Part shown: in pieces, positions 1-37,008 of the stretch | Layout of the letters: the number at the start of each line of letters is the position of its first letter | How positions within the stretch are numbered: the first letter of the stretch is position 1 | Source: an uncultured Candidatus Saccharibacteria bacterium | Lineage (GTDB): Bacteria; Patescibacteriota; Minisyncoccia; Phycocordibacterales; PALSA-1337 | Assembly (NCBI GenBank): GCA_964602725.1 | Contig: CAZRRZ010000003.1 | Span: 1-37,008, forward strand | Length of the DNA: 37,008 nucleotides | Direction: 5' to 3' | Notes under the pieces: model-generated | Databases searched by the model: none | The model's input: only the letters and a program-made list of their open reading frames with translations | What the model was told of the DNA's origin: nothing | Position numbers and translations under genes: made by a program

Positions 1-55
1 GAATATCTCTATTACGTTCAAAATAATTTCGCAAAGTTTCTCCAGGAAGTGCGGT
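1..55. repeat. Terminal direct repeat, copy 1 (identical to 36954..37008): circular closure or terminal redundancy
   Basis: Nt 1-55 (gaatatctctattacgttcaaaataatttcgcaaagtttctccaggaagtgcggt) recur exactly at 36954-37008, so the unique sequence is 36,953 bp. Confidence 0.95.
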
Positions 56-1576
56 TGCAAGCTTGCCAACTGTGGCAGCGATTCCACCAGCAATAGGTCC
101 TCCAAAAATAGTCCCAGCCGCTCCTGATGCTCCAGCAACAATTCCGGACAAATTGGCCACTCCCGGAGCTTGACCAGCATTTTTCAAAGCATTAAGCGCA
201 GCAAATGCGGCTACTGTATCGGCTTTATTGTCTCGGTTTTGTTCTAGGTGAACTTTTTCTTCATTTACTACTGAAAGAAGACTTTCAGGGATGGCATCTG
301 GAGCTTTTGGAGCAAATTTACCCTTTTGAATAGCAGCGGCAAACTTGTTTTGATTAATCGCGTCATATTTTTTACCAGGATCGGCGTCACCCCTTGGAGG
401 AGGGTTAGCTTTTGCTTGGTGCATTGGAGCGATAGCGTTCATGGCGCTCTTTTTCTCCGCAGCTTCTTTATTCCTCTGTTGAACTTTGTTCATGAAAAAG
501 GGAACAACGACATTATCTTGCTGTTGTTGCATAGCATCGCGTTGGGGACCTGGAGGCATTTTGTTAATAGTTTCTTGCATGGAATGAACCGCCGCAGCGC
601 TAGACATATTTAAGGCATCGTTATAAGCCTGAACGTCTGTAATGCCAACTCCCAAATTGTCATATTGTTGCATTGCTGCCTTGCCACCAACTAACGCCGC
701 TTCCGCAGATCGCAAAGCATTCTCGGGTTGCATTCTTTCGTGCTCAAGACTCATTTTGTACCAATTTTGTTTATTGGCTTGCGTTGATTTTTGAGCTTCT
801 AAGTCTCTTTCTAATTCTTTATTCATCATCTCTAGCAAAGCATTCGGCTGACGTGTTAAGCCAGCGCCAGCGCCAGAAATCAAAAGGCCGAAAATAGTTC
901 CGATTTTTCCAAGCGTGCTTTTGCTTTCATAAAGATCTGAATATGTTTTTGGCGTAATTTTTCCATTATTCAAGTCCGTGTAAAAATCATACACATGTGC
1001 AGTTTTCTTTTGGGCTTCCTGATCGGGAGTCAAAACAACTGGTGCAGGCTCCGGAGCTTCTCGTCCCGGGGTCATTACCACCGGCCCAGCGGCGCTTTGC
1101 GGAATTTGAATTTTAGATTGATTTTCCCCTTCGTTTGGAATCGTTTGCTGAGGGACAACTGGCGCTTGTGCCGCAACTGGAGCTTGTGGCGCTGGTTGTG
1201 CGGGCGCTGGAGCGGGTGTTGAAATAGCGGGGGCAACTGGTTTTGGAGCTATGCCAGATGGTTGCTCGGCGGCTTTATCAGGATTCTCGTGAGTCTCTAA
1301 TTCTTTTTCTATTTCTTTGACGGGAGAGCTTTCGATTTTTTTGTCAGCCATTTCAGCGGCGGCAATTTTATCAAGATCGTCTTCTACTTCCTCATCAGGT
1401 ACCTGAACATCAGCGCCTTTTTTTGCGTGAAGTGGAAGCGCTATAAGCTTTTTGCGCAAGATCGGGCTAAGACCTGACATGGCTACTTTAATTTCATGGC
1501 CATCTGGATGTAAAAGCGTAGCGGTGTGCTTGTCTTGCTCAATTTTTTTAAATTTAGAAAATTCTAATTCCTTCAT
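1..1576 (-). CDS. Junction-spanning virion internal/ejection-type protein, N-terminal part (continues at 36953..36616; 637 aa in total)
   Basis: The minus-strand ATG at 1576 overlaps the stop of the upstream gene (ATGA at 1573-1576). I translated 1576->1 by hand and found no stop (MKELEFSKFKKIEQDKHTATLLHPDGHEIKVAMSGLSPILRKK ... GKLATALPGETLRNYFERNRDI). The last residues equal the start of track ORF 36616..36987, whose 'M' is really an in-frame TTG. The protein has a Pro/Ala-rich linker and two glycine-zipper hydrophobic segments (IGTIFGLLISGAGAGL; GIVAGASGAAGTIFGGPIAGGIAATVG). The function is inferred only from its position after the tail genes. Confidence 0.8.
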   Translation of the reverse strand, partial: MKELEFSKFKKIEQDKHTATLLHPDGHEIKVAMSGLSPILRKKLIALPLHAKKGADVQVPDEEVEDDLDKIAAAEMADKKIESSPVKEIEKELETHENPDKAAEQPSGIAPKPVAPAISTPAPAPAQPAPQAPVAAQAPVVPQQTIPNEGENQSKIQIPQSAAGPVVMTPGREAPEPAPVVLTPDQEAQKKTAHVYDFYTDLNNGKITPKTYSDLYESKSTLGKIGTIFGLLISGAGAGLTRQPNALLEMMNKELERDLEAQKSTQANKQNWYKMSLEHERMQPENALRSAEAALVGGKAAMQQYDNLGVGITDVQAYNDALNMSSAAAVHSMQETINKMPPGPQRDAMQQQQDNVVVPFFMNKVQQRNKEAAEKKSAMNAIAPMHQAKANPPPRGDADPGKKYDAINQNKFAAAIQKGKFAPKAPDAIPESLLSVVNEEKVHLEQNRDNKADTVAAFAALNALKNAGQAPGVANLSGIVAGASGAAGTIFGGPIAGGIAATVGKLATALPGETLRNYFERNRDI

Positions 1577-2958
1577 TTGCGTCTCCGTTTTGCAATCACC
1601 TTAGCCACAAAATCAGCGGCCCCTTTTATGGGATCTTTCCCCATAGCCACATCTCTTGGAATGACAATTTCGCCTTCGCTAAGCATAGCTGGCACTTTAT
1701 CATTCGCATACGAATTACCGGATTTCACGGCTTTCTGATGAGGAGCTTTTGCTTTTACATGGCCGCCAGAAGATGCTAGGCCGCCGTCAGCCATTTTTTT
1801 CTCTTTTTCGCCATGCAGTTTTTTGCCTACGGCTTTTCCGAAAGAAGCAAACCCTTGTTGAATTGGATTTTGTTGTTGGCTTGACTCGCCCATTTGCTTT
1901 CCGGCGCCACTTAAAAATTTTCCAAATGAAGACATAGGAGCGCTAGAATCGGCGGGAGCTTGTGCAGGAGCGGCACCCGACATGACCGCACCGCCTACAT
2001 CATAGTGTTGAACCTGACCGCCCTTTGCCATTCCGATAGCTGCTCCAGCGCCTTGCATAACTCCGCCAATAAGGCCTTGTTTGCCTTGCATACCTTGTTG
2101 AAGGAGTGCGGTGTTTCCGCTGTTCACGTTTCCTTGAGCAGCTACGTTTGCGTTGTTTTGTGAAGCGAGAGCGCTTTGCATTTGTCCGGCGTTGGTTAAA
2201 TTGGCATTGGTGTTTGCTTGGGTTTGTGCAATTTGTTGCCCAGCCATCTGGTTAGCCATGCCCTGTTGCATTCCAGCTTGTGTTGTTCCCAAGTTTCCAA
2301 AAGCTTGTTGAGTGTTTGCAAGTCCAGATAAAGCGTTGACTTGTTGATTGGCTTGCATGGTTGCACCCTGGCCAACGGCTTGCTGTTGAGTAGCAGCACC
2401 TTGTTGCGCGGCTTGCCTTGCAAGAAGACCTGTATTAGCACCAGCGCCACGTTGTCCGGCCATCAAAGCAGCTTGGTTAGCAACGTTTGCTCCTGTTTGT
2501 TGATTGAGCATTGCTTGAGCAGGATTTGGGCCTTTGCCTTGAGCGATGTTTTGATACATTCCGGCGGTGCCTTGCAAACCTTGAATCGCAGCGTTTTGCG
2601 TGCCAACACCATTTGCGGCTTGGAGTTGACCCGCCAAAGCCGATTGTTGGCCCAGTCCGTTTTGTCCTTGAAGTGCGGCTAGTAAAGCTTGCTGACTTTG
2701 AAGCGAATTATTAACGCCACCTTGAGCTTGTTGCATTTGCTCGGGCGTAACGGCTTGTTGAATGGTAGCCATTTGTGGCTTATCAATTCCAGCACCCATC
2801 GCACCAGAGAATTCATTGCCCATTTTTCCGGCAATACCGTTCAAGCCATCAGCATTTAGCCCAGACCTTTTTAGAGATTCATCATATACAATATTGCTAC
2901 CACCAGTTGCCACCGTCGCCGCATGGCTTCTAGCACCGCCGCTTGTTGCACTACCCAT
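1573..2958 (-). CDS. Gln/Ala/Gly/Asn-rich low-complexity virion (internal/ejection?) protein, 461 aa
   Basis: ATG at 2958 is preceded by AAGGAG. The long low-complexity Q/A/G/N core is not interrupted by stops. The C-terminus carries MAKGGQV, MADGG and GGHV motifs, PAMLSEGEIVIPRDV and a basic tail (AKVIAKRRRK). The gene is coupled on both sides to neighbouring genes. Confidence 0.7.
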   Translation of the reverse strand: MGSATSGGARSHAATVATGGSNIVYDESLKRSGLNADGLNGIAGKMGNEFSGAMGAGIDKPQMATIQQAVTPEQMQQAQGGVNNSLQSQQALLAALQGQNGLGQQSALAGQLQAANGVGTQNAAIQGLQGTAGMYQNIAQGKGPNPAQAMLNQQTGANVANQAALMAGQRGAGANTGLLARQAAQQGAATQQQAVGQGATMQANQQVNALSGLANTQQAFGNLGTTQAGMQQGMANQMAGQQIAQTQANTNANLTNAGQMQSALASQNNANVAAQGNVNSGNTALLQQGMQGKQGLIGGVMQGAGAAIGMAKGGQVQHYDVGGAVMSGAAPAQAPADSSAPMSSFGKFLSGAGKQMGESSQQQNPIQQGFASFGKAVGKKLHGEKEKKMADGGLASSGGHVKAKAPHQKAVKSGNSYANDKVPAMLSEGEIVIPRDVAMGKDPIKGAADFVAKVIAKRRRK

Positions 2959-2960
2959 AT

Positions 2961-3299
2961 TTAAATCTCCTTTTTAAATATTATAAAATCATTTGAACAA
3001 CTGCTCACAGTCATTCCGTATGCAAGCAAAACCTTCATGCTTGTTGTGCTTCCTTTCATCGAAGGAACCACCGAGCCAATTAATTCAGTGCAACCCTTTT
3101 CCTTGGCTTCCTTTACAATAGCGTCCGCCATGTTAGCCGCTTCACCATTTTTTCTTAGCTCTGGAATAATGAAGATATCAATAATATATACCGACTTTCC
3201 GTTGTTTACATAACGATAGGTTGCAAACCCAAAAGCGTTTTCGATGACACAATCGTCTGTTCTTTCCATAAGATACTTTTTATAAAGGCTCGCCATCAT
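2961..3299 (-). CDS. Small GNAT-family N-acetyltransferase-like protein (112 aa)
   Basis: The track ORF 2961..3362 was trimmed to the ATGATG at 3299, one nt after the TAA (3301-3303) of the upstream gene. YIIDIFIIPELRKNGEAANMADAIVKEAKEKGCTELI fits the GNAT motif A pattern (beta4 - R/Q-x-x-G-x-A/G - helix). Confidence 0.6.
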   Translation of the reverse strand: MMASLYKKYLMERTDDCVIENAFGFATYRYVNNGKSVYIIDIFIIPELRKNGEAANMADAIVKEAKEKGCTELIGSVVPSMKGSTTSMKVLLAYGMTVSSCSNDFIIFKKEI

Positions 3300-3300
3300 T

Positions 3301-6300
3301 TTACCCCACACTCTCACTTGCCGGTTGTGGCCTGAAACCCTTTTTAAAGCCCATGACCACATTGAGCCCGGAAATCGTTAGCCCTGCACCAGCAACTACA
3401 CCAAAAGATGGGTCAAAAATTTCTTGAATCTCTATCGCAAAAGCCATACATCTTTGACGCTCCAAAAATACACGCCACAACTCTAAATTTGTTCCGCCCC
3501 CGTAAGGATTTCCTTGGCCAAATGGCGTTTGTGATGTTCCAGATCCAAACGGAGTAGAATAATTGGTTGGTGATATGATTATACTTTGTGATGGGTTTTT
3601 ATCATAATCGTAGCTAAGCAATACTTGAAGCTTATGCGGAGAAATATACTCACCAAGCAGGTAGAAAAAGTAAGCTCTTTGGTATCCCTGCAAATCGCCA
3701 AGGCGAAGCGGGCCAGTTTTGCAACAAATAAGAACAGGATTCGAACCATCTAAATATGTGTCCACATTTTGTTGGAAAACATCCCCATATTGATTGATAA
3801 ACGTATGCATTTTTTGAAATATACAAGAGCTTATACAAGGCACACCAACAAACGTACCCCACTGACCATAAAAATAGTCATACATCAAAGTAATTCCGGT
3901 ATCTAACGTGAACAAAACCATGTTGGTTTCTGGAACGTTGACCGCACTTTGAACTAATGCTCCCAAGGTAAAATCTTCAACAGGGGCGCCGATGTAAACT
4001 GTGCTCAAATCCCTTCCAAGCAACCAAATACCTTTATCGCTTTGAAACATTAAACCAGTGGGAGTTAACACAATCGATTTTTGATTTGTGCATCCTACTG
4101 TTGCGGTAACAAATGTTGCTTGGCTGTATTGGTTGTTCGCGCCCGTATTATCTGGACCATTCCCGTTGATATATAAAATTGCGTTTTCTTTAAAAGTAAT
4201 GAGCTTATCGTCCATGGACGCGCCCGCCGTAATCGGCCCAGTAGCTCCTTGCGTCGATGTGGTTGGCGGAACAAAAATTGTAAACAAGTCTGACATTTCA
4301 ACCGGAGTAGCTGGAATGCACTGTTTGCTATACCACCATGTATTGGGATCTTCGGCGTTAACTAACCAAAGGCGTGAATCAAACAATGTCAAAATATTAG
4401 AAGCTGGCGCATTTACATCTTCGATAACCCCGCCGGTTGTGTAAATGATGTTATTTCCCAGTATGGTTGCGTCCGAGTTTGTATCTAAGTAGGTTATTTC
4501 GTCGATAGTCGTATCATTTAGGATCGGAGACGTTATGCTTGTGGTTTGGTAATAAATTTGTTGCCCAACTGACCATCTATAAATCACAAGCTTTACAGCG
4601 TTCGCAACCTTCATGGTTAAACGTAAAGTTGCAATATTTAATGTGACGCTGCCCGTTGTTCCGGATCCGGTTGTGGTCACTGGTATAGGAATGGAAGGCG
4701 CAGAGCGAAAAGCATTACCTTGGTTGTCAGTCCATTCATAAACAAACTGGTAATAGTAAGCATTTATATTTGTGGCCGTGTCGGGTTGCGCTGCCATGCT
4801 TCCGCCAGTAGTTGACCACGTTGCGGTATTGGCCGGCGTGTCTTGATCGGTGTCCGGCCACAAAAAGAAATTGTGTTCTACTGGCAAATAACCGTCATAC
4901 ATCCACAAAAAACCACCCGTTAAGTGCAAATTGTTTGCGATTTCGGATGTGTTTAAGTTTTGAGTGCCAATTTCAAATTTTGACAAGTTCAAGCCAGTTT
5001 GCGAATAAATTCCATCAACCTGAGTGCCCGATGGAACATCAGTATTTTTGTTTACAGCCTGAACTAGAAATTTAAACCGATAAGGAATGTAGGCGACATT
5101 ATCAAATACCGAAACACCAGGGATTCCCAGCGTGGAATATCCGCCGCCGTTGCTATAAGCTAATTTCGAAGCTATAACCGGACTATCTTCAGTGCTATCG
5201 CTTCCATTGATCAAAAAATAGGTTGGCTGGTAGTCGCTTTGATAAGCAGACAAGAAATATATCTTTTCGTTTATGATAAAAGCTTTTGAGCTTAATCCAA
5301 CGCTACGCAACACAATATATGGAGACGATACGCTTGGGCCCGATAACGTAACATCTACTGATGAAATGTAATTTGTAGGGATAGCCGCATTAAATGTATA
5401 AGCGTTTTCCACTTCCGCAAACACTTTGCAAACGCCATTTTGGGCCGCTGATGCAAGATTGAGCAGAGTAACCGCTGTGCTTATGGCTTGCGGACTCATC
5501 AGAGTGTTCAGATTTTTATCAACCGCCAAAGTATACGCGTCATTTGACACGTCATCGTAATAGCTCACATAAATCACTGGGCTTGCTGCGTTTGTGTTAT
5601 CGGCGGTAACGCTCACGATAGTTGCAATTTCTCCAACAAACGTAGCCGGAGATGCCAAAAAAAGCGTTTTACTTAAGTAAGTCACTTTCATGGCTTGACC
5701 ACCGGAGGTTGTGTTGTAAGCAATGTAAAGATTCACATCGTTTACAAAACCATCCCAAGAAAGTGTTGTGGCTGGCGCGTATCCGGAAGCTATATCCGTA
5801 TTTGTGCTTATGGATGTTGGCGTGTAGGCGCTGATTGCAACATATTGCAAATGCGGAGAGCCTAAAATTGTATTTGTAAAAACAATGATGAAATTATTGC
5901 CAAGAACAAAAACACGCATCCCACCCGATACCGTTCCGGTAGTCACAGGAATTACAGAAGGTGCGACAATGTTTTGGCCGGTTACCGAATCGGCAATGGC
6001 GTATTTGTTTACAGTATTTGTTCCATCTGATTCCAGATAAACAGTGCACACAAGGCCGTTCGGTGCCACCGCACTATCAACCGCTGTTTGATTTAAGTTG
6101 TTTCTAATCAAAGGCAATACGGAAAGACTTAGAGGTTGAATGGTTCCTTTTTGCACATAACTCGCATTAGCGGGGTTGTATGCGGCAATATTTTGACCGA
6201 TCGCAGTCAAATCACCATTGAAAGTGGTTAAGTGTGTGTAAGTGGTATCCGGGAGTGAAGATAATTTAGGATATCCATAACGTTTTTGTAACAAACCGCC

Positions 6301-9907: not shown

Positions 9908-11215
9908 TTAAGCGCTCAAAGCAACTTGCATGTTGTAGCCAGGTGCCGAGTTGATCAGATTGCCGTAGTAAGCAATACGGATCTCAAGAGCATCAGCGTT
10001 TCCAACGCGCAAGCCTTCCAAACCTTCCATACCGTAGGTAAGGATGTGAGGAGCTTTTCCGAGGGTACGAAGTTTCCACGTATCCATCGTCAAGCACCAT
10101 GCGGTTTGAGCTTGGCAGCTACGATCAGCAAGAACTGGGATCTTACCGTAAGCAGAATGGAAGTGGATTGCTTCGAAAGCAACTTCAACTTCATCGTGCT
10201 CAAGTTGCACGTATTGAACTTTCGCGCCAAGTTCATTGATCAGCGTCGAGTAGCTGACAAAGTCAAGGACGATAAGGTCAAACGATGCACCTTCGCGGTT
10301 ACCGAATGCCAAAGCATTGGTGATACCTTCGGAGATCGATTGGCTAGAAGCGTTGTAACGAAGACCGCCCAAACGGGTAGGATCTGCGGAACGGTTAACG
10401 CCCCAGAAGTTATCAGTAGAAGGAGGATCTACAGCTGGAACCCAAGCTGCGAGTCCGGACATTCCAAGCATACCCGCGATCGTGCTAGATCCGCCGATAC
10501 CGATGTCACCAAGCACTTGAAGGAAAGTACCAGCAACCCATGAAGTTTGTGGAGCGCCTTGAACAACAACACCAGTAATTGCGCCAGTTCCACGATTCAC
10601 CGAAGTGATTTGGATAGCGTCAATTGTTCCAGGAGTGTTTTGCAAAGCAGCGCCGCCATCCGTAGCAGAGCCTTGGATAGTCATGCCAACTTCGAATTGA
10701 ACCACATTTTGTGGGTTCGAAAGTGTAAAGCTGAGGTTAGGAGCAGAATAGACAGGTGCGGTTGCAGAGATTGCGCCGCGGGTTGCTGTTCCACCGTAAA
10801 ACAATTCGAAAGCCATGTTGTTGGAGATGTTGCGGAAACCGTTATCAAGAGTACGGCTAGCTTCATCAACAAATGCACCAGCATTCGACTTGGTTTGTTC
10901 CATCAAAAGGTTTGTGATGGTGACAAGTTGGTAATCTTGAATAGCGTAGACGAAGTACGAAACAACGTCAGAAGCTGTTTGCTGATTCTGGGCGTTAGCA
11001 AATGTATGCGAACGTCCTTGTGGGTTGCCGTATTCCAAAGGCACTGGAATGTATTTACCAGCAAATCCGTCTGGGCTTTCATTCTTAGGAACAAGAGCCA
11101 AAAACGGGTTTTTGGAATACACGATATTTTTCATGTAGTCTTTGTCATCTGTATATAATTCTTTTAATGCGGCTAGCTGGTTAGAGCTATTGGCATATAC
11201 TGGAGCGATTGCCAT
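9908..11215 (-). CDS. Major capsid protein, 435 aa
   Basis: The gene immediately follows the scaffold gene, has an AAGGA RBS and a size typical of HK97-fold coat proteins, and is followed by a strong terminator. The two long plus-strand track ORFs here are antisense shadows. Confidence 0.7.
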   Translation of the reverse strand: MAIAPVYANSSNQLAALKELYTDDKDYMKNIVYSKNPFLALVPKNESPDGFAGKYIPVPLEYGNPQGRSHTFANAQNQQTASDVVSYFVYAIQDYQLVTITNLLMEQTKSNAGAFVDEASRTLDNGFRNISNNMAFELFYGGTATRGAISATAPVYSAPNLSFTLSNPQNVVQFEVGMTIQGSATDGGAALQNTPGTIDAIQITSVNRGTGAITGVVVQGAPQTSWVAGTFLQVLGDIGIGGSSTIAGMLGMSGLAAWVPAVDPPSTDNFWGVNRSADPTRLGGLRYNASSQSISEGITNALAFGNREGASFDLIVLDFVSYSTLINELGAKVQYVQLEHDEVEVAFEAIHFHSAYGKIPVLADRSCQAQTAWCLTMDTWKLRTLGKAPHILTYGMEGLEGLRVGNADALEIRIAYYGNLINSAPGYNMQVALSA

Positions 11216-12151: not shown

Positions 12152-14089
12152 CTATGCCGCTACAGGGGCATTAGTATTGGGGATAAGAGGAGATGTTGCG
12201 TTCGGCATTGGATTAGCCGTTGGCGTTGGTCCACCGGGTGCACCAGGTCCCATTGGAGGGACTACTGGTTGCGATCCTTGTATTAACGTTTGAACCTGAG
12301 AGAAAAACTTACGGAGCATGTCTGCTTTTTCTTCCTCAAGGTTAGCCGCAAGGTAGAGGTTGATGTATTGAACCACAAGAGTAGTTGCGAGTTGCAAATC
12401 AAGGAACGGATCCGGCATGGTGTAATCACCGTCTTCCACGATTTTATCCAAGATTTGGAATATGCGTTCTTCGGAAGCGTTATCAAGCTTCTCATTTTCT
12501 TCAAGGTCAGGAGCTTTCATCAGTCTTCGGCCTTCTTTGACCGTTAACATTCCAGCTTGAACCATTTCGGTGACGGTTTGAATTCTACCGGCTGGGGTTC
12601 TAGGCAAAGAAGACTCAGTAAAGCATTTGATGACAAATGGATTTTTCAAAAAGCCCATCTGTGGAAGATTGATTTCTTTTGTTCCATCCTTGTTTGGATA
12701 GACCGTTTGATACGAGCCAGTATCTTTTGCGATGTCCATGGCGGTATCGGTAATGAGATAAGCAAGTTCAATAGCTACGTTTTCATGTTTTTTTGACAGA
12801 TAAGCAAATCTATCCGAGTTGATGTCATCATAGCTTCGGATGGCTTCGCCGGAATTTAAACCAGCGGGCTTTTGTGCGGTTGCTTGCATATTGGACACGC
12901 CACATTGACGATATCCATATTCAATAAGCTTATCGCGCTCAGCATAAAGCTCGGGAGCATTACAAGGAGCAACCTCATAGCTAGGTTTTGTGCCGGAGTA
13001 GGTTACGATAACGCCAATTTCATTATTATTGTGCGCTTTGACTACCTTGCTGCCTTGTTCAATGAACACGCGAGGCACACCCACCAAAGAAATGGCTTTA
13101 GTGATGGTGTACATGATTCGATTGATAGAAAGCTGCGTACCAAATAGCTGAGTAGCAAGCCCTTGGCCCCAGAATCCTAAGAATGGGTCTGAGTAATGCA
13201 TGAATACGAAAGGAAATTTGGTTTTATGGTAGGGCTCGTCAAAAATAATGCCGCCCATGGTTGCAATTGTGTGTCTTCCGGGAGTATATCCGGGCGCTTC
13301 TGGATCCGGACCGCTTGCAAGCTTCCATCCTTCAACAACCAACACTTGATCGGCTGTTGTGCGTCCTGAATCTGACGCATTGTCAGGATAAGATTGAGGA
13401 GTAAGAGCTATTTCGGGAGCAGCTTTTGGGTTATTGGCAAGAAGCTTGTCCCTGTCTACAAGTTTCATCTGGATAAGTTGTTGAGGATCTCCATTGAGAG
13501 AATCATTGTCATCGACATACAAATCCGTTGTCATGACTCTATCAATGCAAACCTTGTCGTTATCACCGCGGTATACTTTTAAAGCACCGCACCCCATAAC
13601 AATTGCATCTCTTAAGATTTTGGCGATCTTTTCGTAGGCATCTGTTTGGTAAAACTCTCCGAGGATAAAACGGTTGAGTTCTTGCGCAAGATGACGCTGC
13701 TTATAATCGGCACCATCAGTAAGAAATTTGGGCGCCGGTTCATTTTGAGAGAGACGTGAGACCAATGTATCAGTAGCTGACTGTATAAGATTAAAAGTTG
13801 GACGATCGTCAGGAAGAGTTTTCGTGCGGTCCATTTTGGAAACGTTGGACCCTGCATATGAATATACGGACAACCCACAATAGAGACGGATATCCACGGC
13901 CAACTGACGCATCCGGTAAGTCTGATGAGTTTTAAGGTAAGCAAGGTTTCCGCACAGTTCGGCGGCGAGTTGTCTGTCATCTTCAGCCTTCCACCATTCA
14001 GCCATGAGTGAGGCACCATTTGTACCATCACTTGCCTGTGTTTTAAATTTAATCTTTTCTGGAAGCTTTTTGGCCTTGGTTATTTTCAC
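12152..14089 (-). CDS. Portal protein, 645 aa
   Basis: This large acidic ORF lies between terminase and scaffold. The GTG start at 14089 overlaps the upstream TGA (GTGA coupling). The C-terminus is Pro/Gly-rich. Confidence 0.7.
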   Translation of the reverse strand: MKITKAKKLPEKIKFKTQASDGTNGASLMAEWWKAEDDRQLAAELCGNLAYLKTHQTYRMRQLAVDIRLYCGLSVYSYAGSNVSKMDRTKTLPDDRPTFNLIQSATDTLVSRLSQNEPAPKFLTDGADYKQRHLAQELNRFILGEFYQTDAYEKIAKILRDAIVMGCGALKVYRGDNDKVCIDRVMTTDLYVDDNDSLNGDPQQLIQMKLVDRDKLLANNPKAAPEIALTPQSYPDNASDSGRTTADQVLVVEGWKLASGPDPEAPGYTPGRHTIATMGGIIFDEPYHKTKFPFVFMHYSDPFLGFWGQGLATQLFGTQLSINRIMYTITKAISLVGVPRVFIEQGSKVVKAHNNNEIGVIVTYSGTKPSYEVAPCNAPELYAERDKLIEYGYRQCGVSNMQATAQKPAGLNSGEAIRSYDDINSDRFAYLSKKHENVAIELAYLITDTAMDIAKDTGSYQTVYPNKDGTKEINLPQMGFLKNPFVIKCFTESSLPRTPAGRIQTVTEMVQAGMLTVKEGRRLMKAPDLEENEKLDNASEERIFQILDKIVEDGDYTMPDPFLDLQLATTLVVQYINLYLAANLEEEKADMLRKFFSQVQTLIQGSQPVVPPMGPGAPGGPTPTANPMPNATSPLIPNTNAPVAA

Positions 14090-14289
14090 TGTTGTCCACC
14101 GCCTACTGCGTAAAACATCATCTGTTCAGGAGTTAACTCATCTGTAGGAATTTCATCGCTATCATTAGCTTCAGTTTTGGCAGGCAAATCACCTAATTTT
14201 ACAGATACACCAGCAAACGAGATGTCGGTGACACCTTGCTTGCGGCATATCTTAAGGAATTTTTCCAATTCTTTGAGATCTGACAGCAT
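14086..14289 (-). CDS. Small acidic protein, 67 aa
   Basis: A GAGGA RBS precedes the start and the gene is coupled to portal. The C-terminus FYAVGGGQQ resembles the shared A-x-G-G motif. Confidence 0.6.
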   Translation of the reverse strand: MLSDLKELEKFLKICRKQGVTDISFAGVSVKLGDLPAKTEANDSDEIPTDELTPEQMMFYAVGGGQQ

Positions 14290-14296
14290 AAAATCC

Positions 14297-15121
14297 TCAG
14301 GCTGGACGTGGCATCTTGTCTTTTTTCTTACGAGACATCATAATTTGCTTAACAACGTCATGACGGTCTTCATCTTCCTGCTCATTACCAATCTCATCTC
14401 CTGAGTCCTCGCCGGTATAGCTGGATTCCAAATCATCACGTAAAACTAGATCATCAAATTGGTTTTCTTTTTCATCAACGTCCATGCCGTCACCAACATC
14501 GTTAGCAACCCGGCCGCCTTCAGAATATTTGCCCATGCGTTTTTCCATGATGTGCTCAACTAAATCTCTGGCACGTTGCTCATCGTCTTCAGCTTTAGCG
14601 TTATGTTTTTCATGTTCTTCTGGAAAATCGTCATATCCAGAAGCTTCTTCCATGGCTTCGTAGTCTTTTTCCACTTCTCCGCCTTCCGCATAACCGCAGT
14701 TTTTACATGCACTCACATGACCGCCTTCTGCATAACCAGGTTTTTTGAATGCTTTTTTAAAGCCCCGAGTAGCTGGGTTGGTATCCTCATGCTCTGGCAT
14801 AGGTGTTGGTTTTGGAGCAGCTTTAATCTCCTCGGGAGTTTTGAAAGCTTTCTTGAAACCTTCTTCTACAGTCCCGCCATCAGCTAAGTATTTGCGATCC
14901 TTTTTTCCCATGCGAATCATCTCGCCAAGAACTTGCAAATGTTTTTCTTTTGCTTTAGGTAAATAATATTCTTTTTGGCTTGATTTTGAGTCACGATAAT
15001 CCTCTCCGGCTTCGCTCATGCCAGGATATTTCTCGGACCCTTCTCCAGAGACGGGCTTATGAACGCCTTTCTCATGGCTCTTTTTCTTACGCTTCATCGC
15101 ATATGCAATTGCAAGACTCAT
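14297..15121 (-). CDS. Highly charged K/E/D-rich protein with four [YL]-[AS]-[DE]-G-G-x-V motifs, 274 aa
   Basis: The motifs are YLADGGTV, GYAEGGHV, GYAEGGEV and KYSEGGRV. GFKKAFK occurs twice, there is a CxxC (CKNC), and the tail is basic (SRKKKDKMPRPA). Confidence 0.65.
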   Translation of the reverse strand: MSLAIAYAMKRKKKSHEKGVHKPVSGEGSEKYPGMSEAGEDYRDSKSSQKEYYLPKAKEKHLQVLGEMIRMGKKDRKYLADGGTVEEGFKKAFKTPEEIKAAPKPTPMPEHEDTNPATRGFKKAFKKPGYAEGGHVSACKNCGYAEGGEVEKDYEAMEEASGYDDFPEEHEKHNAKAEDDEQRARDLVEHIMEKRMGKYSEGGRVANDVGDGMDVDEKENQFDDLVLRDDLESSYTGEDSGDEIGNEQEDEDRHDVVKQIMMSRKKKDKMPRPA

Positions 15122-15124
15122 GGG

Positions 15125-15499
15125 TTACACCCCTTGGTATACATTGATGATCGATTTGATAGCATTGCGAGCATTATCAACAGGTGCTGAAGAACTGAGC
15201 ACAACTGTGATTACATCAGTAGCAACGCATTGCAACCGCACGCTTCCGCCAACAATAGGTTGTGTTGGGGATGGAGCAGAGGTTGTTAGTACTGGTGAAC
15301 CGTTCAGGTTAACCACTACAACAAGAGACGATCCGCCAGTTGTTACTGAAGAATCGTTTGAGCTTCCAGATGCTTGATAAGGAACAAAGCATTTGAAATC
15401 AACAGTAAGAAACCCAGCGGTTGCCGAAGTTACTGTGTATGTTTGAGTTCCGAGACCGCCTACGACTGTGCTGGTATTTGCTTGTAAACTGTTAGCCAT
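15125..15499 (-). CDS. Small beta-rich protein, 124 aa (virion-associated?)
   Basis: A GAGGA RBS precedes the start and spacing to both neighbours is tight. The composition is S/T/V/G-rich. Confidence 0.55.
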   Translation of the reverse strand: MANSLQANTSTVVGGLGTQTYTVTSATAGFLTVDFKCFVPYQASGSSNDSSVTTGGSSLVVVVNLNGSPVLTTSAPSPTQPIVGGSVRLQCVATDVITVVLSSSAPVDNARNAIKSIINVYQGV

Positions 15500-15810: not shown

Positions 15811-15880
15811 TTGATATCAGGTGATATGACTAAAATGATAACATCATTTGATATCATTTCTCCCCAATATTAGATATCAT
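15811..15880. promoter_or_regulatory. Cluster of GATATC-centred palindromes (TTGATATCA x2, AGATATCAT x1)
   Basis: TTGATATCA occurs at 15811-15819 and 15848-15856, and AGATATCAT at 15872-15880 overlapping the terL stop. All lie in the terL-downstream intergenic spacer. The same 9-mer recurs at 21708-21716. Confidence 0.35.
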
Positions 15881-17346
15881 CCCAGATCCCCTAAAGTACC
15901 TTCCATAGGCCAGTCCCCACCTTGCGTGGTTAGCCTTTCACGTTCCTTCTCCCAAATATTATCCGCTTGGGACTGATACCAATCTCTGGAACCTATGATG
16001 AGCTTTTTTTCAGCAGGTATAGAAGCGTAGTGCCATCCGCAACGCCATGCGTATAAAAAAGCGTCACACAAATGGTTGGGCAATGCGGGGTGTTCTTTTT
16101 TTGGATACTTGATCTTATCGCCATCGGTCACCCAAACAAGTGAGCTCATCTCTTGCCAAAGGTCCCTGTTGTCGGCGTTGTCTAGTATCTTTATTTTTCC
16201 TTGAATGAGATCGTTATTACAAAGTTCAATGAATGTTGCTTTGTCTTGTTTGTCTGCATACTCAAATGGAATAGCAGAACGTTGTTTCATTGATTCCACG
16301 CCTTGCTTGTTAGCACCATCGATAATGATCTTGTGCGGGGCCATAACAGGGTCTCTTTGGAACTCCTGAATCTTGGCTATCACGTCATCAAAGGTCATTT
16401 TCTTTTTATGAAATGTTTTCGGGACAACCAAATAGGGTAGGTTAGTATGATATGCCGTGAGGACAAAAGCTGAGTCATCCTCCCAGCCTGTATCGACGCC
16501 CAAAACGAAACTCCATCCGCCATCCGATAAGTGAGGCATAGCAGATGAAAGATTGCGAGACATATCAAATCGGTAAACCAATTTTTCTTCATCAATCACC
16601 CATTGGTTGAGATACCACTGCTTATACTGTGGCGTTTGCATATACTCAGGACGTTCCCGAGCTATTTTGTCTAAGGCTTCTTGCCACTGTCTTGCGACAT
16701 ATGGGTTGTCATGCGCCGTCCAAATAAATAGACTCCATCCCTTTTCTGTTCCAACTGTAATGTCATAAAAAAGGCCACGAGGAAAATCGGATGCAGTACC
16801 CAAAAGGCAAATTGTGCCAGACTCATCTTCTGAGTTCGGGTCAACCATAGCTGGACCCAAGATACCGTACACAAGATTCCTAAGATCAATACTATACATG
16901 GATGCTTCATCAATGCATACAAGTCTAAACTTCCTTCCTAAGAGCTTATTCATCTCTTTTTCATCGGCGTCAGCGCCGGTTACTGATATAACACTACCGT
17001 TTGGTAGCGTCATAGTTAAATCGGTTTGGTTAAAGCTTGCTCCGAGTTGGTATTTAACGTCGATAATTGAGAGGATGTCTTTCCAGATGATAGCTTTTGC
17101 AGATTGTCTAGTAAGACCAATGAAAAGGCAGTTGCATCCGGGATTCCTGACTGCTTCATATACAAGATAAAGTCCTGCGGAGAAACTCTTAGCGCTTCTT
17201 CTAGTGCAGAATAAAGTTTTTTGCTTTGATGGGTCTTTGATGAAGTTGACTTGGTGGCTGAACGCACTTTCGAGGACATTGGGAAGATTCTCCTTAGCTA
17301 TGAGTCTAGCTGCATATTCTTCAAATATTAGTTTTGGGTCAGGCAT
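15877..17346 (-). CDS. terL: Terminase large subunit, 489 aa
   Basis: There is a Walker-A-like CTRRSAKSFS and a Walker B RLVCIDEASMY. The C-terminal RNase-H-like nuclease acidic residues appear in VLGVDTGWEDD, IIIDGANKQG and HLCDAFLYAW. Confidence 0.9.
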   Translation of the reverse strand: MPDPKLIFEEYAARLIAKENLPNVLESAFSHQVNFIKDPSKQKTLFCTRRSAKSFSAGLYLVYEAVRNPGCNCLFIGLTRQSAKAIIWKDILSIIDVKYQLGASFNQTDLTMTLPNGSVISVTGADADEKEMNKLLGRKFRLVCIDEASMYSIDLRNLVYGILGPAMVDPNSEDESGTICLLGTASDFPRGLFYDITVGTEKGWSLFIWTAHDNPYVARQWQEALDKIARERPEYMQTPQYKQWYLNQWVIDEEKLVYRFDMSRNLSSAMPHLSDGGWSFVLGVDTGWEDDSAFVLTAYHTNLPYLVVPKTFHKKKMTFDDVIAKIQEFQRDPVMAPHKIIIDGANKQGVESMKQRSAIPFEYADKQDKATFIELCNNDLIQGKIKILDNADNRDLWQEMSSLVWVTDGDKIKYPKKEHPALPNHLCDAFLYAWRCGWHYASIPAEKKLIIGSRDWYQSQADNIWEKERERLTTQGGDWPMEGTLGDLG

Positions 17347-35376: not shown

Positions 35377-35550
35377 ATGAGTATCGCTTTTTATTTCGGA
35401 TACTTCTTGGGCATGGTAGCAACAGTTGTAGTTTATATCCTTCATTATGGCATTCATTACGCGCTACCAATTGCCCTTGTTTATTTTTCGGCCAAGCTTC
35501 TTGTTAAGATTTTCCAAAAAGTTACTGCTTTTGTGAGCGCGCAATTCTAG
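35377..35550 (+). CDS. Membrane protein, 57 aa (2 TM)
   Basis: The internal ATG of track ORF 35293..35550 has TAGGAG upstream. The translation is MSIAFYFGYFLGMVATVVVYILHYGIHYALPIALVYFSAKLLVKIF.... Confidence 0.5.
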   Translation: MSIAFYFGYFLGMVATVVVYILHYGIHYALPIALVYFSAKLLVKIFQKVTAFVSAQF

Positions 35551-36619
35551 CCTGATTTCCTGTGAGATACGAGTCATCTGATTTTTGTAATGCAGACGGT
35601 TTTTGTTTTGGGGCGGCTTGAGGTTGTTGTTGCTGTTTTCCTTGAAAAGTAGCTTGGGCCGCCATTATGTTTTGTGGGGTCATTTCGGCTGAAAGAGGTA
35701 CTCCAAACAATAAGCTTAGTCCTTGCCTGATTTTATAACTTGGCTTCTTCCCATCTAATTGATGTTTGATTATTTTTTCAGTCAGCTTTTTTTGAAGCAC
35801 GTCATCAACTTCCGGATACATGGCCTTAAAATGTTTCACATGCTCAGGTTCAATAGTTCCATCTTTGATTTTTGTCAAAATACGAAATGGGTCGGCGGCA
35901 ATTTGCAGAGCTCTTTGATAAGACCTTTTTTGCAACGTCTGATCAGGTTCATCGTCAAAAGCTAATTTGGGTTGGTTTTTTTGTGGCTTTATTGAATTCA
36001 AATAACCCGACATTCTGGCTTTGGCTGATTGCAAAAGAATGTTTTGTTCAGGATACGTTTCAGCTATTTGGCTACTAATGCCTTTTCTAGGTTTTACGTC
36101 TCCGCCGTCAGCGAACATTTCCGGTTGATGTTGAGAATGTATTTCCTCTTGGATGTCTTGATCAATACCACCGCGCTCTATCCATTCATGAATGAGCTTG
36201 GTCATCTTTTCATCCGAAGTTCTTTGAGATGGTTCATTTCCGAACAGATGTTCGATTCTAGTCGACATGTTTTTGTGGCCACGCTTTATCGAATGATTGT
36301 ATCTATCGACATCATGGTCATGCATCTTGATAAGTCCATGCAAACCACTATTCCCTAAATACGAAACTGCGGCGGCATGATGATCATCGTGCTTTGGAAT
36401 GACTTCGCCACCCTCAGCATAATATTCGCACTCTTTGTTGTGCGGTTTATTAAGTGAGCAATAAGATTCTACCTCACCGCCTTCGGCCATGGATTTAGAA
36501 TGCTCTCCTCCGCTCGGAGCGCCACCGTAGCATTTGCAATTCGGGTGAGGTTTACCGTGTGACTTGCAATTGGGATTCTGGCAAGGGAGGTTATTATCAT
36601 ATGCGTAGTATGACGTCAT
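35522..36619 (-). CDS. Cys/His-rich internal/ejection-type protein with three A-[ED]-G-G-[ED]-V motifs, 365 aa
   Basis: ATGA coupling links it to the junction gene. The N-terminus reads CQNPNCKSHGKPHPNCKCYGG. The motifs are MAEGGEV, YAEGGEV and FADGGDV. Its 3' end overlaps the convergent plus-strand gene by 29 nt. Confidence 0.65.
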   Translation of the reverse strand: MTSYYAYDNNLPCQNPNCKSHGKPHPNCKCYGGAPSGGEHSKSMAEGGEVESYCSLNKPHNKECEYYAEGGEVIPKHDDHHAAAVSYLGNSGLHGLIKMHDHDVDRYNHSIKRGHKNMSTRIEHLFGNEPSQRTSDEKMTKLIHEWIERGGIDQDIQEEIHSQHQPEMFADGGDVKPRKGISSQIAETYPEQNILLQSAKARMSGYLNSIKPQKNQPKLAFDDEPDQTLQKRSYQRALQIAADPFRILTKIKDGTIEPEHVKHFKAMYPEVDDVLQKKLTEKIIKHQLDGKKPSYKIRQGLSLLFGVPLSAEMTPQNIMAAQATFQGKQQQQPQAAPKQKPSALQKSDDSYLTGNQARIARSQKQ

Positions 36620-37008
36620 TTAAAAAGGCCTCTAAATGGGTTCCATCCGGCATCTTCATTTTTTTGCGCTTTTTTGCTAGTTCCAATCGCCCCGGTTGAT
36701 TTCATTTCTGGTGCTGGCGGTTTTTTTGGTGGTTCAGGATATTTATATTTAGGTGGTTCATGAACAAGACCGAGTCTTCTTAGGTTTGGCGCTTTTTCTT
36801 CCAAGTTGTTATCAAAGTGCTTATTCATAACTTTCCAAACTTCTTTTCGCGATTCATCAGTATCAGCCCAAGAAGGTAAAAGACCAGCAACCTGTCTCAT
36901 TTTAGCTTCATCAGATTTATTGACGCCTAAACGTTCAGCAAGAGCGTTGATTTGAATATCTCTATTACGTTCAAAATAATTTCGCAAAGTTTCTCCAGGA
37001 AGTGCGGT
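36616..37008 (-). CDS. C-terminal part of the junction-spanning gene (see 1..1576)
   Basis: The frame is open to the window edge. 36954-37008 duplicates 1-55, so the unique coding part is 36616-36953. The C-terminus is Pro/Lys-rich (EPPKYKYPEPPKKPPAPE). Confidence 0.8.
   Translation of the reverse strand, partial: TALPGETLRNYFERNRDIQINALAERLGVNKSDEAKMRQVAGLLPSWADTDESRKEVWKVMNKHFDNNLEEKAPNLRRLGLVHEPPKYKYPEPPKKPPAPEMKSTGAIGTSKKAQKNEDAGWNPFRGLFK
36954..37008. repeat. Terminal direct repeat, copy 2
   Basis: Exact copy of nt 1-55. Confidence 0.95.

What the first reader, a model, noticed from the sequence alone, without database searches (positions are those of the whole stretch)
14086..15121. 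A degenerate [Y/F/M]-[A/S]-[D/E/K]-G-G-x-V motif recurs 10 or more times in four otherwise unrelated low-complexity virion-module proteins
The copies I found are listed here. The 274-aa protein has YLADGGTV, YAEGGHV, YAEGGEV and YSEGGRV. The 365-aa protein (35522..36619) has MAEGGEV, YAEGGEV and FADGGDV. The 461-aa Q-rich protein (1573..2958) has MAKGGQV, MADGGLA and SGGHV. The 67-aa protein ends in FYAVGGG. Several copies lie next to Cys pairs (CKNC; CSLNKPHNKEC). GF(K/A)(K/S)(A)F(K/G)K boxes also occur in two proteins, and the C-terminal tails are basic (AKVIAKRRRK; SRKKKDKMPRPA). A short motif shared by proteins encoded in two separate parts of the structural operon suggests a common recognition signal. 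Candidates are capsid targeting or packaging of internal proteins, a maturation cleavage site, or a metal or partner binding knuckle. I do not recognise it as a described motif.
Basis: seen in the sequence. Interest (0 to 1): 0.6.

Follow-up and report, generated by a model that had tools for sequence, protein, structure and literature searches.

The report
Gly-Gly tag on phage ejection proteins
A seven-residue peptide (hydrophobic, Ala/Ser, charged, Gly, Gly, any, Val) recurs far above chance in the proteins this uncultured short-tailed phage probably packs in its head and injects; the same motif flanks a conserved core in the tape-measure proteins of long-tailed phages, and phage T5 cuts its tape measure exactly in front of it.

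Summary
The window is a closed 36,953-bp podovirus-like genome. It holds nine full copies of Phi-[A/S]-[D/E/K]-G-G-x-[V/A]. All nine lie in three otherwise unrelated proteins (274, 365 and 461 aa), against three hits in the other 700 kb of the bin. The 67-aa protein's FYAVGGG is not this motif.

Homologues keep the motif: 296, 243 and 178 copies, against 2.6, 3.4 and 34 in shuffles. In four complete relatives it occurs only in the same gene slots.

The copies sit in coil or low-confidence parts of the AlphaFold2 models. In the 274- and 365-aa families they often lie next to Cys/His clusters.

The motif is not unique to this lineage. The 461-aa protein ends in a module, Phi-A-x-GG ... GG ... 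DK[IV]PAxLSxGE[IV]V[IL]P, shared with tape measure proteins (hhalign E about 1e-8; 683 phage records). Lambda gpH carries two copies. T5 pb2 is cut after R1127, directly before its only AEGG.

The function is unproven. I favour maturation or joint cleavage sites (about 0.37). A docking or assembly hairpin without cleavage is almost as likely (about 0.33). No phage protease is evident. This scan had already noted the same motif in a related genome, and a similar Gly-Gly tag in crassviruses.

The parts
14297..15121 (-). P0001, 274-aa family A protein. It lies between the large terminase (15877-17346) and the portal (12152-14089). It is mostly disordered and carries four motif copies.
   Evidence: Translation. 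207 homologues. 2104 representatives at 50% identity. AF2 mean pLDDT 66, motifs in coil after helices. Gene order conserved.
14867..14887 (-). Motif copy LADGGTV (P0001 residues 79-85)
14714..14734 (-). Motif copy YAEGGHV (P0001 residues 130-136), preceded by GFKKAFKKPG and followed by CKNC
14672..14692 (-). Motif copy YAEGGEV (P0001 residues 144-150), directly after CKNCG
14507..14527 (-). Motif copy YSEGGRV (P0001 residues 199-205). This is the family-wide, nearly invariant last copy, Y-S-x-G-G-x-V-A-N-D.
35522..36619 (-). P0003, 365-aa family B protein, last gene of the ejection-protein block. It has an N-terminal Cys/His-rich segment and a confident all-helical domain (residues about 80-320) with no PDB relative.
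36470..36490 (-). Motif copy MAEGGEV (P0003 residues 44-50), between conserved C30 and C54. A45, G47 and G48 are at least 90% conserved.
36401..36421 (-). Motif copy YAEGGEV(IP) (P0003 residues 67-73), just after C64. This copy is variable or absent in relatives.
36095..36115 (-). Motif copy FADGGDV (P0003 residues 169-175), in the loop between helices 151-164 and 184-188. G172 and G173 are at least 90% conserved in 118 sequences. A170 and V175 are also at least 90% conserved in the 22-sequence alignment.
36428..36583 (-). Conserved Cys/His cluster of P0003 (C13, C18, H25, C28, C30, C54, H60, C64); probable zinc sites framing motif copy 1
   Evidence: Invariant in 22 sequences and at least 90% conserved in 118 sequences
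1573..2958 (-). P0004, 461-aa Gln/Ala/Gly-rich family C protein, first gene of the ejection-protein block. It ends in a tape-measure-type module.
2011..2031 (-). Motif copy MAKGGQV (P0004 residues 310-316), at the end of a Gly-rich hydrophobic stretch
1576..1794 (-). C-terminal module of P0004 (residues 389-461): MADGGLA, then SSGGHV, then NDKVPAMLSEGEIVIPR, then a basic helix. It is homologous to a module of tape measure proteins.
   Evidence: hhalign against Gordonia phage Lilbeanie TMP E 5.5e-8, Pelagibacter phage Kolga gp11 E 1.5e-8, Brevundimonas phage Domovoi TMP E 2e-4. tblastn.
1657..1683 (-). Core unit LSEGEIVIP (P0004 residues 426-434). It has the motif's skeleton with the second Gly replaced by Glu. 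L65, S66, E69, V71 and P73 of the alignment are invariant.
1..1576 (-). First 525 codons of the 637-aa middle ejection-block gene, which continues at 36616-36953 across the circular junction. It has no strict copy here, but its counterparts in relatives carry 1-4 copies.
14086..14289 (-). P0002, 67-aa protein. It is NOT a motif carrier; its conserved C-terminus LTPEQ(M/L)MFYAV(G/N)G is a different feature.

Best explanation
SHOWN. The motif Phi-[A/S]-[D/E/K]-G-G-x-V is a conserved short linear motif. It lies in coil or low-confidence segments of the proteins that occupy the internal/ejection-protein slots of a large, wholly uncultured group of roughly 37-kb podovirus-like phages. It is the local form of a Gly-Gly unit that flanks the core D-x-[IV]-P-A-x-L-S-x-G-E-Phi-V-Phi-P in tape measure proteins of long-tailed phages and in HMO-2011-type podovirus proteins. 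The 461-aa protein carries that whole module at its C-terminus. In this lineage the unit has multiplied and spread to the other head-packaged proteins.

INFERRED mechanism. The units are exposed joints at which these proteins are proteolytically processed during or after assembly, with the cut between the hydrophobic residue and the Ala/Ser. This is what T5 does: its tape measure pb2 is cut at R1127|AEGG. Lambda gpH is probably cut likewise, in front of FATGG. Cutting would release the C-terminal module of the 461-aa protein (about 72 residues, analogous to T5 pb2C and lambda gpHC). It would also dice the 274-aa protein into small charged or amphipathic peptides plus a conserved 75-residue C-terminal piece.

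No phage protease is evident, so the enzyme would be a host peptidase, as OpdA is for P22 gp7, or an assembly-dependent activity.
For: Motif reality, specificity and conservation.

Structural setting: low-pLDDT coil following helices in family A. In family B, a low-confidence N-terminus and an exposed loop.

Module homology of the P0004 C-terminus with tape measure proteins:
- hhalign E 5.5e-8, 1.5e-8 and 2e-4.
- The actinophage module hits 683 phage records, nearly all annotated as tape measure protein.
- Brevundimonas phage Domovoi TMP against lambda gpH gives BLASTP E 0.004 over GEFV...YAxGGYVG.
- Lambda gpH reads FHFATGGFTGTGG...HRGEFVFT...RGYATGGYVG.

Experimental anchors:
- T5 pb2 is cut after R1127 (PMC10038345). 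Residues 1128-1131 are AEGG, the only [AS][DEK]GG in 1219 residues. Only 0.8% of pb2 bonds have GG at P2'-P4'.
[quoted passage not shown] A cut before ATGG predicts 79.8 kDa.
- The first 20 residues of P22 gp7 are removed by host OpdA (GenBank annotation). The next residues are KGGKGG.

Sequence pattern: positions -1 (Y/M/F/L) and 0 (A/S) are tightly constrained, with basic residues upstream, as expected for P1/P1' and subsites.
Against: - No prohead or other virion protease was found in the genome by Pfam, PHROGs or NCBIfam.
- The only protease, a papain-family C1 enzyme at 28448-29530, is present in 2 of 5 related genomes.
- The two experimental precedents do not share the exact register or the P1 residue: T5 has Arg at -1, and P22 cuts one residue before GG.
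- Conservation extends to Val at +5. The hydrophobic pattern (-1, 0, +4 in TMPs, +5) fits a two-residue Gly-Gly beta-hairpin better than a protease subsite.
- The T5 cut could simply fall at the accessible edge of a folded module.
- Copy 3 of family B lies inside a compact helical domain.
- Copy number varies from 1 to 6 between homologues, which is more typical of avidity-type binding motifs.
- T7 and P22 lack the motif altogether, so it is not a universal requirement.
- No mass-spectrometry data exist for this uncultured group.
Confidence: 0.37

Rival explanations
1. Docking or assembly hairpin without cleavage. Each unit folds into a two-residue Gly-Gly beta-hairpin only when it pairs with a partner. 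Candidate partners are other units, the related L-S-x-G-E-Phi-V core unit of the 461-aa protein, or a common virion surface such as the portal or the capsid interior. The motif would then be the address label and 'staple' that bundles the internal proteins in the head and lets them re-associate into the ejection channel. In tape measure proteins it would hold the oligomeric C-terminal module together.
For: - The motif is restricted to the internal/ejection slots in this genome and in four complete relatives.
- Copy number is variable (1-6) on variable spacers, which suits avidity.
- Hydrophobic residues are conserved on both sides of GG.
- The TMP module consists of three units of one skeleton, GG - GE - GG: lambda FATGGFT / VHRGEFV / YATGGYV, Domovoi YADGGYV / LSNGEFV / YANGGLV, Lilbeanie LADGGLV / LSAGEFV / FADGGRV. 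This suggests units that pack together.
- AF2 leaves the motifs unstructured in monomers, as expected for folding on binding.
- No protease is needed.
- Other agents of this scan read a similar Phi-[K/Q]-x-G-G tag of crassvirus cargo proteins as a docking tag. This is a lead, not evidence.
Against: - No reader or partner has been identified.
- Long-tailed and short-tailed phages share no obvious common partner for the motif.
- It does not explain why the T5 cut falls exactly at the first residue of the unit.
- The segments of lambda gpHC and T5 pb2C that hold the motif are unresolved, that is flexible, in cryo-EM maps of mature virions (PMC12617516; PMC10038345).
Confidence: 0.33
2. Metal-binding knuckle. 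The motif is part of small zinc-binding (Cys/His) or calcium-binding (acidic, Gly-rich turn, RTX-like) elements that stiffen otherwise disordered internal proteins.
For: - Family B has eight conserved Cys/His framing copy 1.
- In family A, CxxC is followed by the motif within 1-6 residues in 45 of 76 cases, and many relatives have C-x2-H-x5-C-x2-C-H-G-G directly before it.
- Acidic residues are common at +1 and at +6 to +8.
Against: - The motif itself has no Cys or His.
- Family C (3 Cys in 120 proteins, none near a motif) and the tape measure proteins carry the motif without Cys.
- Lys occupies +1 in about a quarter of copies, which argues against Ca binding.
- It does not match the RTX GGxGxD register.
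- The Pfam KGG and RTX models do not hit.
Confidence: 0.08
3. The motif is a composition artefact of Gly/Ala/Glu-rich low-complexity proteins and has no function.
For: The carriers are low-complexity. In the Ala/Gly-rich family C, shuffles already give 34 copies per 120 proteins.
Against: - The excess over shuffles is 100-fold in family A, 70-fold in family B and 5-fold in family C.
- Some copies are positionally invariant.
- There are 9 of 12 hits in 1,100 of 435,238 residues.
- The motif is exclusive to the same slots in relatives.
Confidence: 0.01

Closest known systems
C-terminal Gly-rich module of tape measure proteins (lambda gpH residues about 730-790; T5 pb2 residues 1128-1160; Gordonia phage Lilbeanie, mycobacteriophage and Brevundimonas TMPs; PDB 8zdo chain S gp16)
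   Same: The unit is the same, Phi-A-x-G-G-Phi-V, often followed by a second GG four residues on. The core D-x-[IV]-P-A-x-L-S-x-G-E-Phi-V-Phi-P is the same (hhalign E about 1e-8 to P0004). The proteins have the same fate: stored extended and expelled through the tail before the DNA. Both lambda and T5 tape measures are cut in this region, T5 exactly before AEGG.
   Different: This is a short-tailed phage with no tail tube or tape measure. Here the unit is spread over three (four in relatives) separate head-packaged proteins, mostly as solo copies without the GE core. Position +4 is hydrophilic rather than aromatic. The lambda and T5 links rest on motif resemblance and one weak transitive BLAST hit, not on significant profile scores. 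No Pfam model covers the module.
Shared cleavage/targeting motifs of phage internal proteins: the T4 capsid targeting sequence with gp21 L/I-x-E sites, and the giant-phage (phiKZ/SPN3US) S/A/G-x-E sites
   Same: A short motif is shared by otherwise unrelated proteins that are packaged in the head and ejected. It marks them for a common assembly step.
   Different: Those systems have a phage-encoded prohead protease and a Glu at P1. Here no protease gene was found, the charged position tolerates Lys, and copies are internal and multiple rather than a single N-terminal leader.
P22 gp7 ejection protein leader, removed by host oligopeptidase A
   Same: It is an ejection protein of a podovirus that has no protease of its own, processed by a host enzyme. 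The cut (E20|K21) is followed by GGKGG.
   Different: There is a single N-terminal site in a different register, with no Phi-A/S. P22 has none of the motif as defined here.
Crassvirus cargo-protein tag basic-[Y/F]-[K/Q]-x-G-G-x-Phi
   Same: The skeleton is the same, Phi-x-x-G-G-x-Phi, on several otherwise unrelated packaged or ejected proteins. crAss001 gp45 has NIFDTGGQS near its N-terminus and AFAEGGGL at residue 260.
   Different: Positions 0 and +1 hold different residues, and the copies are mostly N-terminal. The evidence is AI notes plus my single-protein check. No homology between the carriers was shown.
Gly-Gly maturation sites of eukaryotic dsDNA viruses (adenovirus (M/I/L)XGG|X; ASFV GG|X) and double-glycine bacteriocin leaders
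   Same: A hydrophobic residue lies a few positions before a Gly-Gly, repeated in several virion proteins.
   Different: Those are cut after GG by a dedicated cysteine protease, with the hydrophobic residue at P4. Here the hydrophobic residue is one position further from GG, the only mapped relative (T5) is cut before the A-x-G-G, and no such protease is conserved.

Membership tests
Tape-measure-type C-terminal module (GG unit - GE core) | Core D-x-[IV]-P-A-x-L-[ST]-x-G-E-Phi-V-Phi-P | tested here: met
   P0004 has NDKVPAMLSEGEIVIPR. Family C profile against Lilbeanie TMP E 5.5e-8, Kolga gp11 E 1.5e-8, Domovoi TMP E 2e-4.
Tape-measure-type C-terminal module (GG unit - GE core) | Phi-A-x-G-G-Phi-V unit upstream of the core, with a second GG four residues later | tested here: met
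   P0004 MADGGLASSGGHV against lambda ATGGFTGTGGKY and Lilbeanie ADGGLVGMAVGGMV. hhalign pairs these segments, but without significance for lambda and T5.
Tape-measure-type C-terminal module (GG unit - GE core) | The carrier is a tail tape measure protein of a long-tailed phage | tested here: not met
   The virion module is podovirus-like: P22/SU10-like portal, Podo-type major capsid protein, SU10-like adaptor, no tail tube or TMP. HMO-2011 and CRP-1 podoviruses also carry the module.
Tape-measure-type C-terminal module (GG unit - GE core) | Proteolytic cut at the N-terminal edge of the module (T5 pb2, lambda gpH) | not testable with these tools
   This needs virion mass spectrometry. The phage group is uncultured.
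T4-type capsid targeting sequence / prohead-protease sites | Phage-encoded prohead protease | tested here: not met
   No protease family hit among the 40 larger ORFs scanned (all virion-module and larger early ORFs), except an accessory papain C1 gene.
T4-type capsid targeting sequence / prohead-protease sites | Single N-terminal leader ending in L/I-x-E | tested here: not met
   Copies are internal and multiple. The charged position is E, D or K.
Substrate sites of the phage's own papain-family (C1) protease | The protease co-occurs with the motif carriers | tested here: not met
   PF00112 is present in 2 of 5 related genomes, all of which carry the motif proteins.
Zinc knuckle / zinc ribbon | Four Cys/His ligands within the element | tested here: inconclusive
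   Conserved Cys/His flank copy 1 of family B and many family A copies. The motif itself has no ligands, and family C and the TMPs lack Cys.
Pfam KGG stress repeat / RTX nonapeptide | Match to the family model or register | tested here: not met
   No Pfam hit for P0001, P0003 or P0004 at E <= 0.01. The register differs from GGxGxD.
Crassvirus cargo tag (scan notes) | basic-[Y/F]-[K/Q]-x-G-G near N-termini of consecutive cargo genes | tested here: inconclusive
   The skeleton is shared. crAss001 gp45 has FDTGG at residues 17-21 and FAEGG at 260. Residues at 0 and +1 and copy placement differ, and no homology was tested.

The most novel reading that the evidence does not exclude
Phi-x-x-G-G-x-Phi is a general 'exit-protein' code of tailed phages. 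It would be one ancient Gly-Gly unit shared by tape measure proteins, podovirus ejection proteins and crassvirus cargo proteins. It would mark the joints of every protein that is stored unfolded and leaves the virion through the tail, and it would be read by a common, still unknown mechanism, either assembly-coupled cleavage or hairpin hand-off. If so, tape measures and podovirus ejection proteins share ancestry, and protein cargo loading and release in uncultured phages could be predicted from sequence.
Probability: 0.2. Interest if true: 0.85.

Novelty: new variant of a known kind. Interest (0 to 1): 0.55.

Why it matters
It is poorly understood how short-tailed phages choose, store and release the proteins they inject ahead of their DNA. 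For most uncultured groups these proteins cannot even be recognised.

A seven-residue label that picks out exactly these proteins gives a sequence handle for finding ejected proteins. Here it marks them in a group with more than 2,000 family A representatives at 50% identity and no cultured member.

The same label is part of a widespread but uncurated tape-measure module, which gives a concrete link between tape measures and podovirus ejection proteins.

It also turns an old open point into a testable prediction: where and why lambda gpH and T5 pb2 are cut. The prediction is a cut between the hydrophobic residue and A-x-G-G.

Tried and rejected
- Chance or composition: rejected by shuffles and genome-wide background.
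- The 67-aa protein as a fourth carrier: rejected, because its homologues do not keep a GG motif.
- Prohead protease: none found.
- Universal podovirus feature: rejected. T7 and P22 have no copy even of a loose pattern.
- Direct homology of P0004 to lambda gpH by BLASTP: none. hhalign to lambda and T5 segments aligns the right residues but is not significant.
- Pfam, PHROGs and NCBIfam give nothing for the three carriers.
- PDB sequence search with the family B profile: nothing. Foldseek of the family B model: nothing.
- PDB search with the TMP module finds only a TMP chain (8zdo) and no resolved structure of the module. The HMO-2011-type module finds nothing.
- Cultured relatives: none in the phage collection for portal, capsid, P0001 or P0003.
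- Literature searches for a description of the motif found none. The mycobacteriophage TMP 'motifs 1-3' are different, host-like hydrolase domains.
- My recollection that the N-terminal extension of some family A members resembles a Pfam DUF was not borne out.
No multimer prediction is available here.

Full report
SETTING

The window is the whole contig C3 of a 737-kb, 76-contig bin. Its first 55 nt equal its last 55 nt, so it is a closed genome of 36,953 bp.

The minus strand carries a late operon in this order:
- large terminase (15877-17346)
- two small genes
- P0001 (274 aa)
- P0002 (67 aa)
- portal (12152-14089; P22/SPP1/SU10-like)
- a coiled-coil, scaffold-like 293-aa protein
- a Podo-type major capsid protein (9908-11215; NF033394, E 1.6e-18)
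- an SU10-adaptor-like protein
- a 1038-aa protein
- a GNAT
- P0004 (461 aa, Gln-rich)
- a 637-aa gene that crosses the junction
- P0003 (365 aa)

P0004, the 637-aa gene and P0003 are therefore contiguous. They occupy the position where podoviruses encode their internal (ejection) proteins. P0001 sits in the terminase-portal gap.

No cultured relative exists in the phage collection. Homologues are nevertheless plentiful in metagenomes, many on 36-39-kb contigs. The family A profile finds 2,104 representatives at 50% identity.

Yes, with corrections.

All quoted peptides are present. In six frames the core [AS][DEK]GG.[VA] occurs nine times. All nine lie in P0001 (4), P0003 (3) and P0004 (2).

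With the hydrophobic residue required at -1, the whole bin (435,238 ORF residues) yields 12 hits. Nine fall in these 1,100 residues.

In 120 homologues of each protein the totals are:
- family A: 296 copies, against 2.6 in shuffles
- family B: 243 copies, against 3.4 in shuffles
- family C: 178 copies, against 33.7 in shuffles

The profile is Y/M/F/L at -1, A/S at 0, E>K>D at +1, GG, variable at +4 and V/I/A at +5. Basic residues lie upstream and acidic ones downstream.

Several copies are fixed alignment columns. These are A45/G47/G48 and G172/G173 in family B, and the last copy Y-S-x-G-G-x-V-A-N-D in family A.

In ten IMG/VR relatives and four fully fetched complete genomes the motif is found only in the equivalent genes. 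There the middle ejection-block protein carries it too.

The three carriers are otherwise unrelated.

The 67-aa protein is not a carrier: its homologues end FYAVNGAQQ or FYAVGGQS.

STRUCTURAL CONTEXT

AlphaFold2 with deep alignments gave two models.

Family A is mostly disordered, with a few helices. Each motif lies in low-confidence coil, typically just after a helix.

Family B has a confident all-helical domain (residues about 80-320, pLDDT above 90) with no PDB relative. Copy 3 lies in an exposed loop of that domain. Copies 1 and 2 lie in a low-confidence N-terminal 78 residues that hold eight conserved Cys/His residues.

Cys is enriched near the motif in families A and B, and CxxC often precedes it by 1-6 residues. 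Family C has almost no Cys (3 residues in 120 proteins, none near a motif). The metal sites are therefore neighbours of the motif, not the motif itself.

WHAT IT IS RELATED TO

The C-terminal 72 residues of P0004 read MADGGLA-SSGGHV-(20)-NDKVPAMLSEGEIVIPR-basic helix. They are almost invariant in family C.

A tblastn of this piece hit tape measure proteins (Brevundimonas and Gordonia phages), a Pelagibacter siphophage protein, and the N-termini of a protein encoded after the portal in HMO-2011-type podoviruses.

Profile comparison confirms homology of the core:
- Lilbeanie TMP, E 5.5e-8
- Kolga gp11, E 1.5e-8
- Domovoi TMP, E 2e-4

The actinophage module in turn finds 683 phage records, nearly all annotated as tape measure protein. 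It occurs twice in a deposited TMP chain (8zdo).

In all of these the core is flanked by the finding's motif:
- Lilbeanie: LADGGLV ... LSAGEFVVP ... FADGGRV
- Domovoi: YADGGYV ... LSNGEFVI ... YANGGLV, and later FADGGYV
- Kolga: FAEGGIV ... LTPGEVVIP

Lambda gpH has the same layout, FHFATGGFTGTGG ... HRGEFVFT ... RGYATGGYVG. It is linked to Domovoi by a weak BLASTP hit (E 0.004), but it is not significant against the family C profile.

The core unit L-S-x-G-E-Phi-V has the motif's own skeleton with Glu in place of the second Gly. The module therefore looks like three units of one kind. This last point is inference.

No Pfam model covers the module. My literature searches found no description of it. 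T7 and P22 lack it.

EXPERIMENTAL ANCHORS

- T5. The tape measure pb2 is cut 'after R1127' according to mass spectrometry (PMC10038345). In my translation R1127 is followed by AEGGMMYPGVSYQMGEHGTEVVTP. A1128-G1131 is the only [AS][DEK]GG in 1,219 residues. Only 0.8% of pb2's bonds have GG at that distance.
[quoted passage not shown] A cut before ATGG would give 79.8 kDa plus 12.5 kDa.
- P22. gp7 loses its first 20 residues to the host peptidase OpdA (GenBank annotation). Residues 21-26 are KGGKGG.

These three cases make a 'cut-here' reading credible. They differ, however, in register and in the P1 residue.

MECHANISM

Shown: this is a conserved linear motif in flexible parts of the proteins in the ejection slots, shared with the tape-measure module.

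Inferred, best reading (about 0.37): the units are processing joints, cut between the hydrophobic residue and Ala/Ser by a host or assembly-dependent peptidase. Cutting would release the C-terminal module of P0004, as in T5 pb2C and lambda gpHC. It would also break family A into small peptides. Some of these carry the amphipathic basic GFKKAFKK boxes, and one is a conserved 75-residue tail.

Against this reading:
- No phage protease is present apart from an accessory papain gene found in only 2 of 5 relatives.
- Conservation reaches +5.
- Copy number is variable.

Nearly equal rival (about 0.33): the unit is a Gly-Gly beta-hairpin that folds only on pairing and serves as a docking or assembly staple. 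On this view the T5 cut merely falls at the module's edge.

Minor rivals: a metal knuckle (0.08) and a composition artefact (0.01).

RELATION TO EARLIER NOTES OF THIS SCAN

The same motif was noted on a related genome (e1-3510056; no follow-up shown).

Several agents described a similar basic-[Y/F]-[K/Q]-x-G-G tag on crassvirus cargo proteins and read it as a docking tag.

I checked only PhicrAss001 gp45. It has FDTGG at residues 17-21 and FAEGG at residue 260. These are leads, not support.

VERDICT

It is a lineage-specific expansion of a widespread, apparently uncurated tape-measure-type Gly-Gly unit onto all the ejected proteins of a large uncultured podovirus group.

The function is unproven. 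The decisive experiments are virion mass spectrometry on cultured carriers, lambda and T5 site mutants, and multimer modelling.

Noticed in passing
window 36428-36583 (P0003 residues 13-64): Eight conserved Cys/His (C13, C18, H25, C28, C30, C54, H60, C64) are invariant in 22 homologues and at least 90% conserved in 118. They look like two CCHC-type zinc sites at the N-terminus of an ejection-block protein. AF2 leaves this segment unstructured.
   Followed up: partly
window 35660-36380 (P0003 residues about 80-320): A confidently predicted all-helical domain (pLDDT above 90) has no Foldseek match in the PDB (best E 2.0) and no sequence match. It may be a new fold for an ejection protein.
   Followed up: partly
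window 2950-2958 (start of P0004) and 2961-3362 (GNAT): 109 of 120 family C proteins begin Met-Gly, and P0004 begins MGSATSG. The gene immediately upstream is a small GNAT acyl/acetyltransferase. N-terminal modification of the first ejection protein by the phage's own GNAT is an untested idea.
   Followed up: partly
window 14741-14764, 14837-14860 (P0001); P0004 residues about 343-382: Amphipathic basic boxes (GFKKAFKK, GFKKAFKT, FGKFLSGAGK, GFASFGKAVGKK) lie a few residues before motif copies. They resemble cationic membrane-active peptides.
   Followed up: no
window 15125-15499: The 124-aa beta-rich protein upstream of P0001 is a shortened form of a 250-aa protein in relatives (L013 9247-9999, L014 3526-4278). 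The N- and C-terminal thirds are conserved and the middle is missing here.
   Followed up: no
P0122, P0364, P0372 (family A relatives): Some family A members have an extra N-terminal 27-38 residues, MPLxxGKSxKAFxxN...GKPxKQSLAIAY, before the usual start. Pfam gives no hit.
   Followed up: partly
P0255, P0275 (family C relatives): These proteins carry two copies of the GE core unit (for example VSEKEAIIP and IPEGAVVIPR). The core, like the GG unit, can therefore duplicate.
   Followed up: no
L015 (T7) gp6.7 and gp7.3: By eye, two small ejected T7 proteins encoded upstream of the portal have degenerate look-alikes of the module: gp7.3 VAGGLAGLAGGTGEAQMVEVP, and gp6.7 EFGGSSDETDTEGTEVS. They are not significant and were not tested.
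   Followed up: no
G003:C1:21561-22007 and G002:C1:34593-35063 (IMG/VR relatives): The family A match is interrupted by one in-frame TGA in G003. In G002 it is split by a TAA into two pieces. This could be a broken gene, a sequencing error or recoding.
   Followed up: no
window 28448-29530: The papain-family C1 peptidase (Pfam E 2.7e-40) is present in only 2 of 5 related complete or near-complete genomes. It is an accessory gene, not part of the conserved virion programme.
   Followed up: partly
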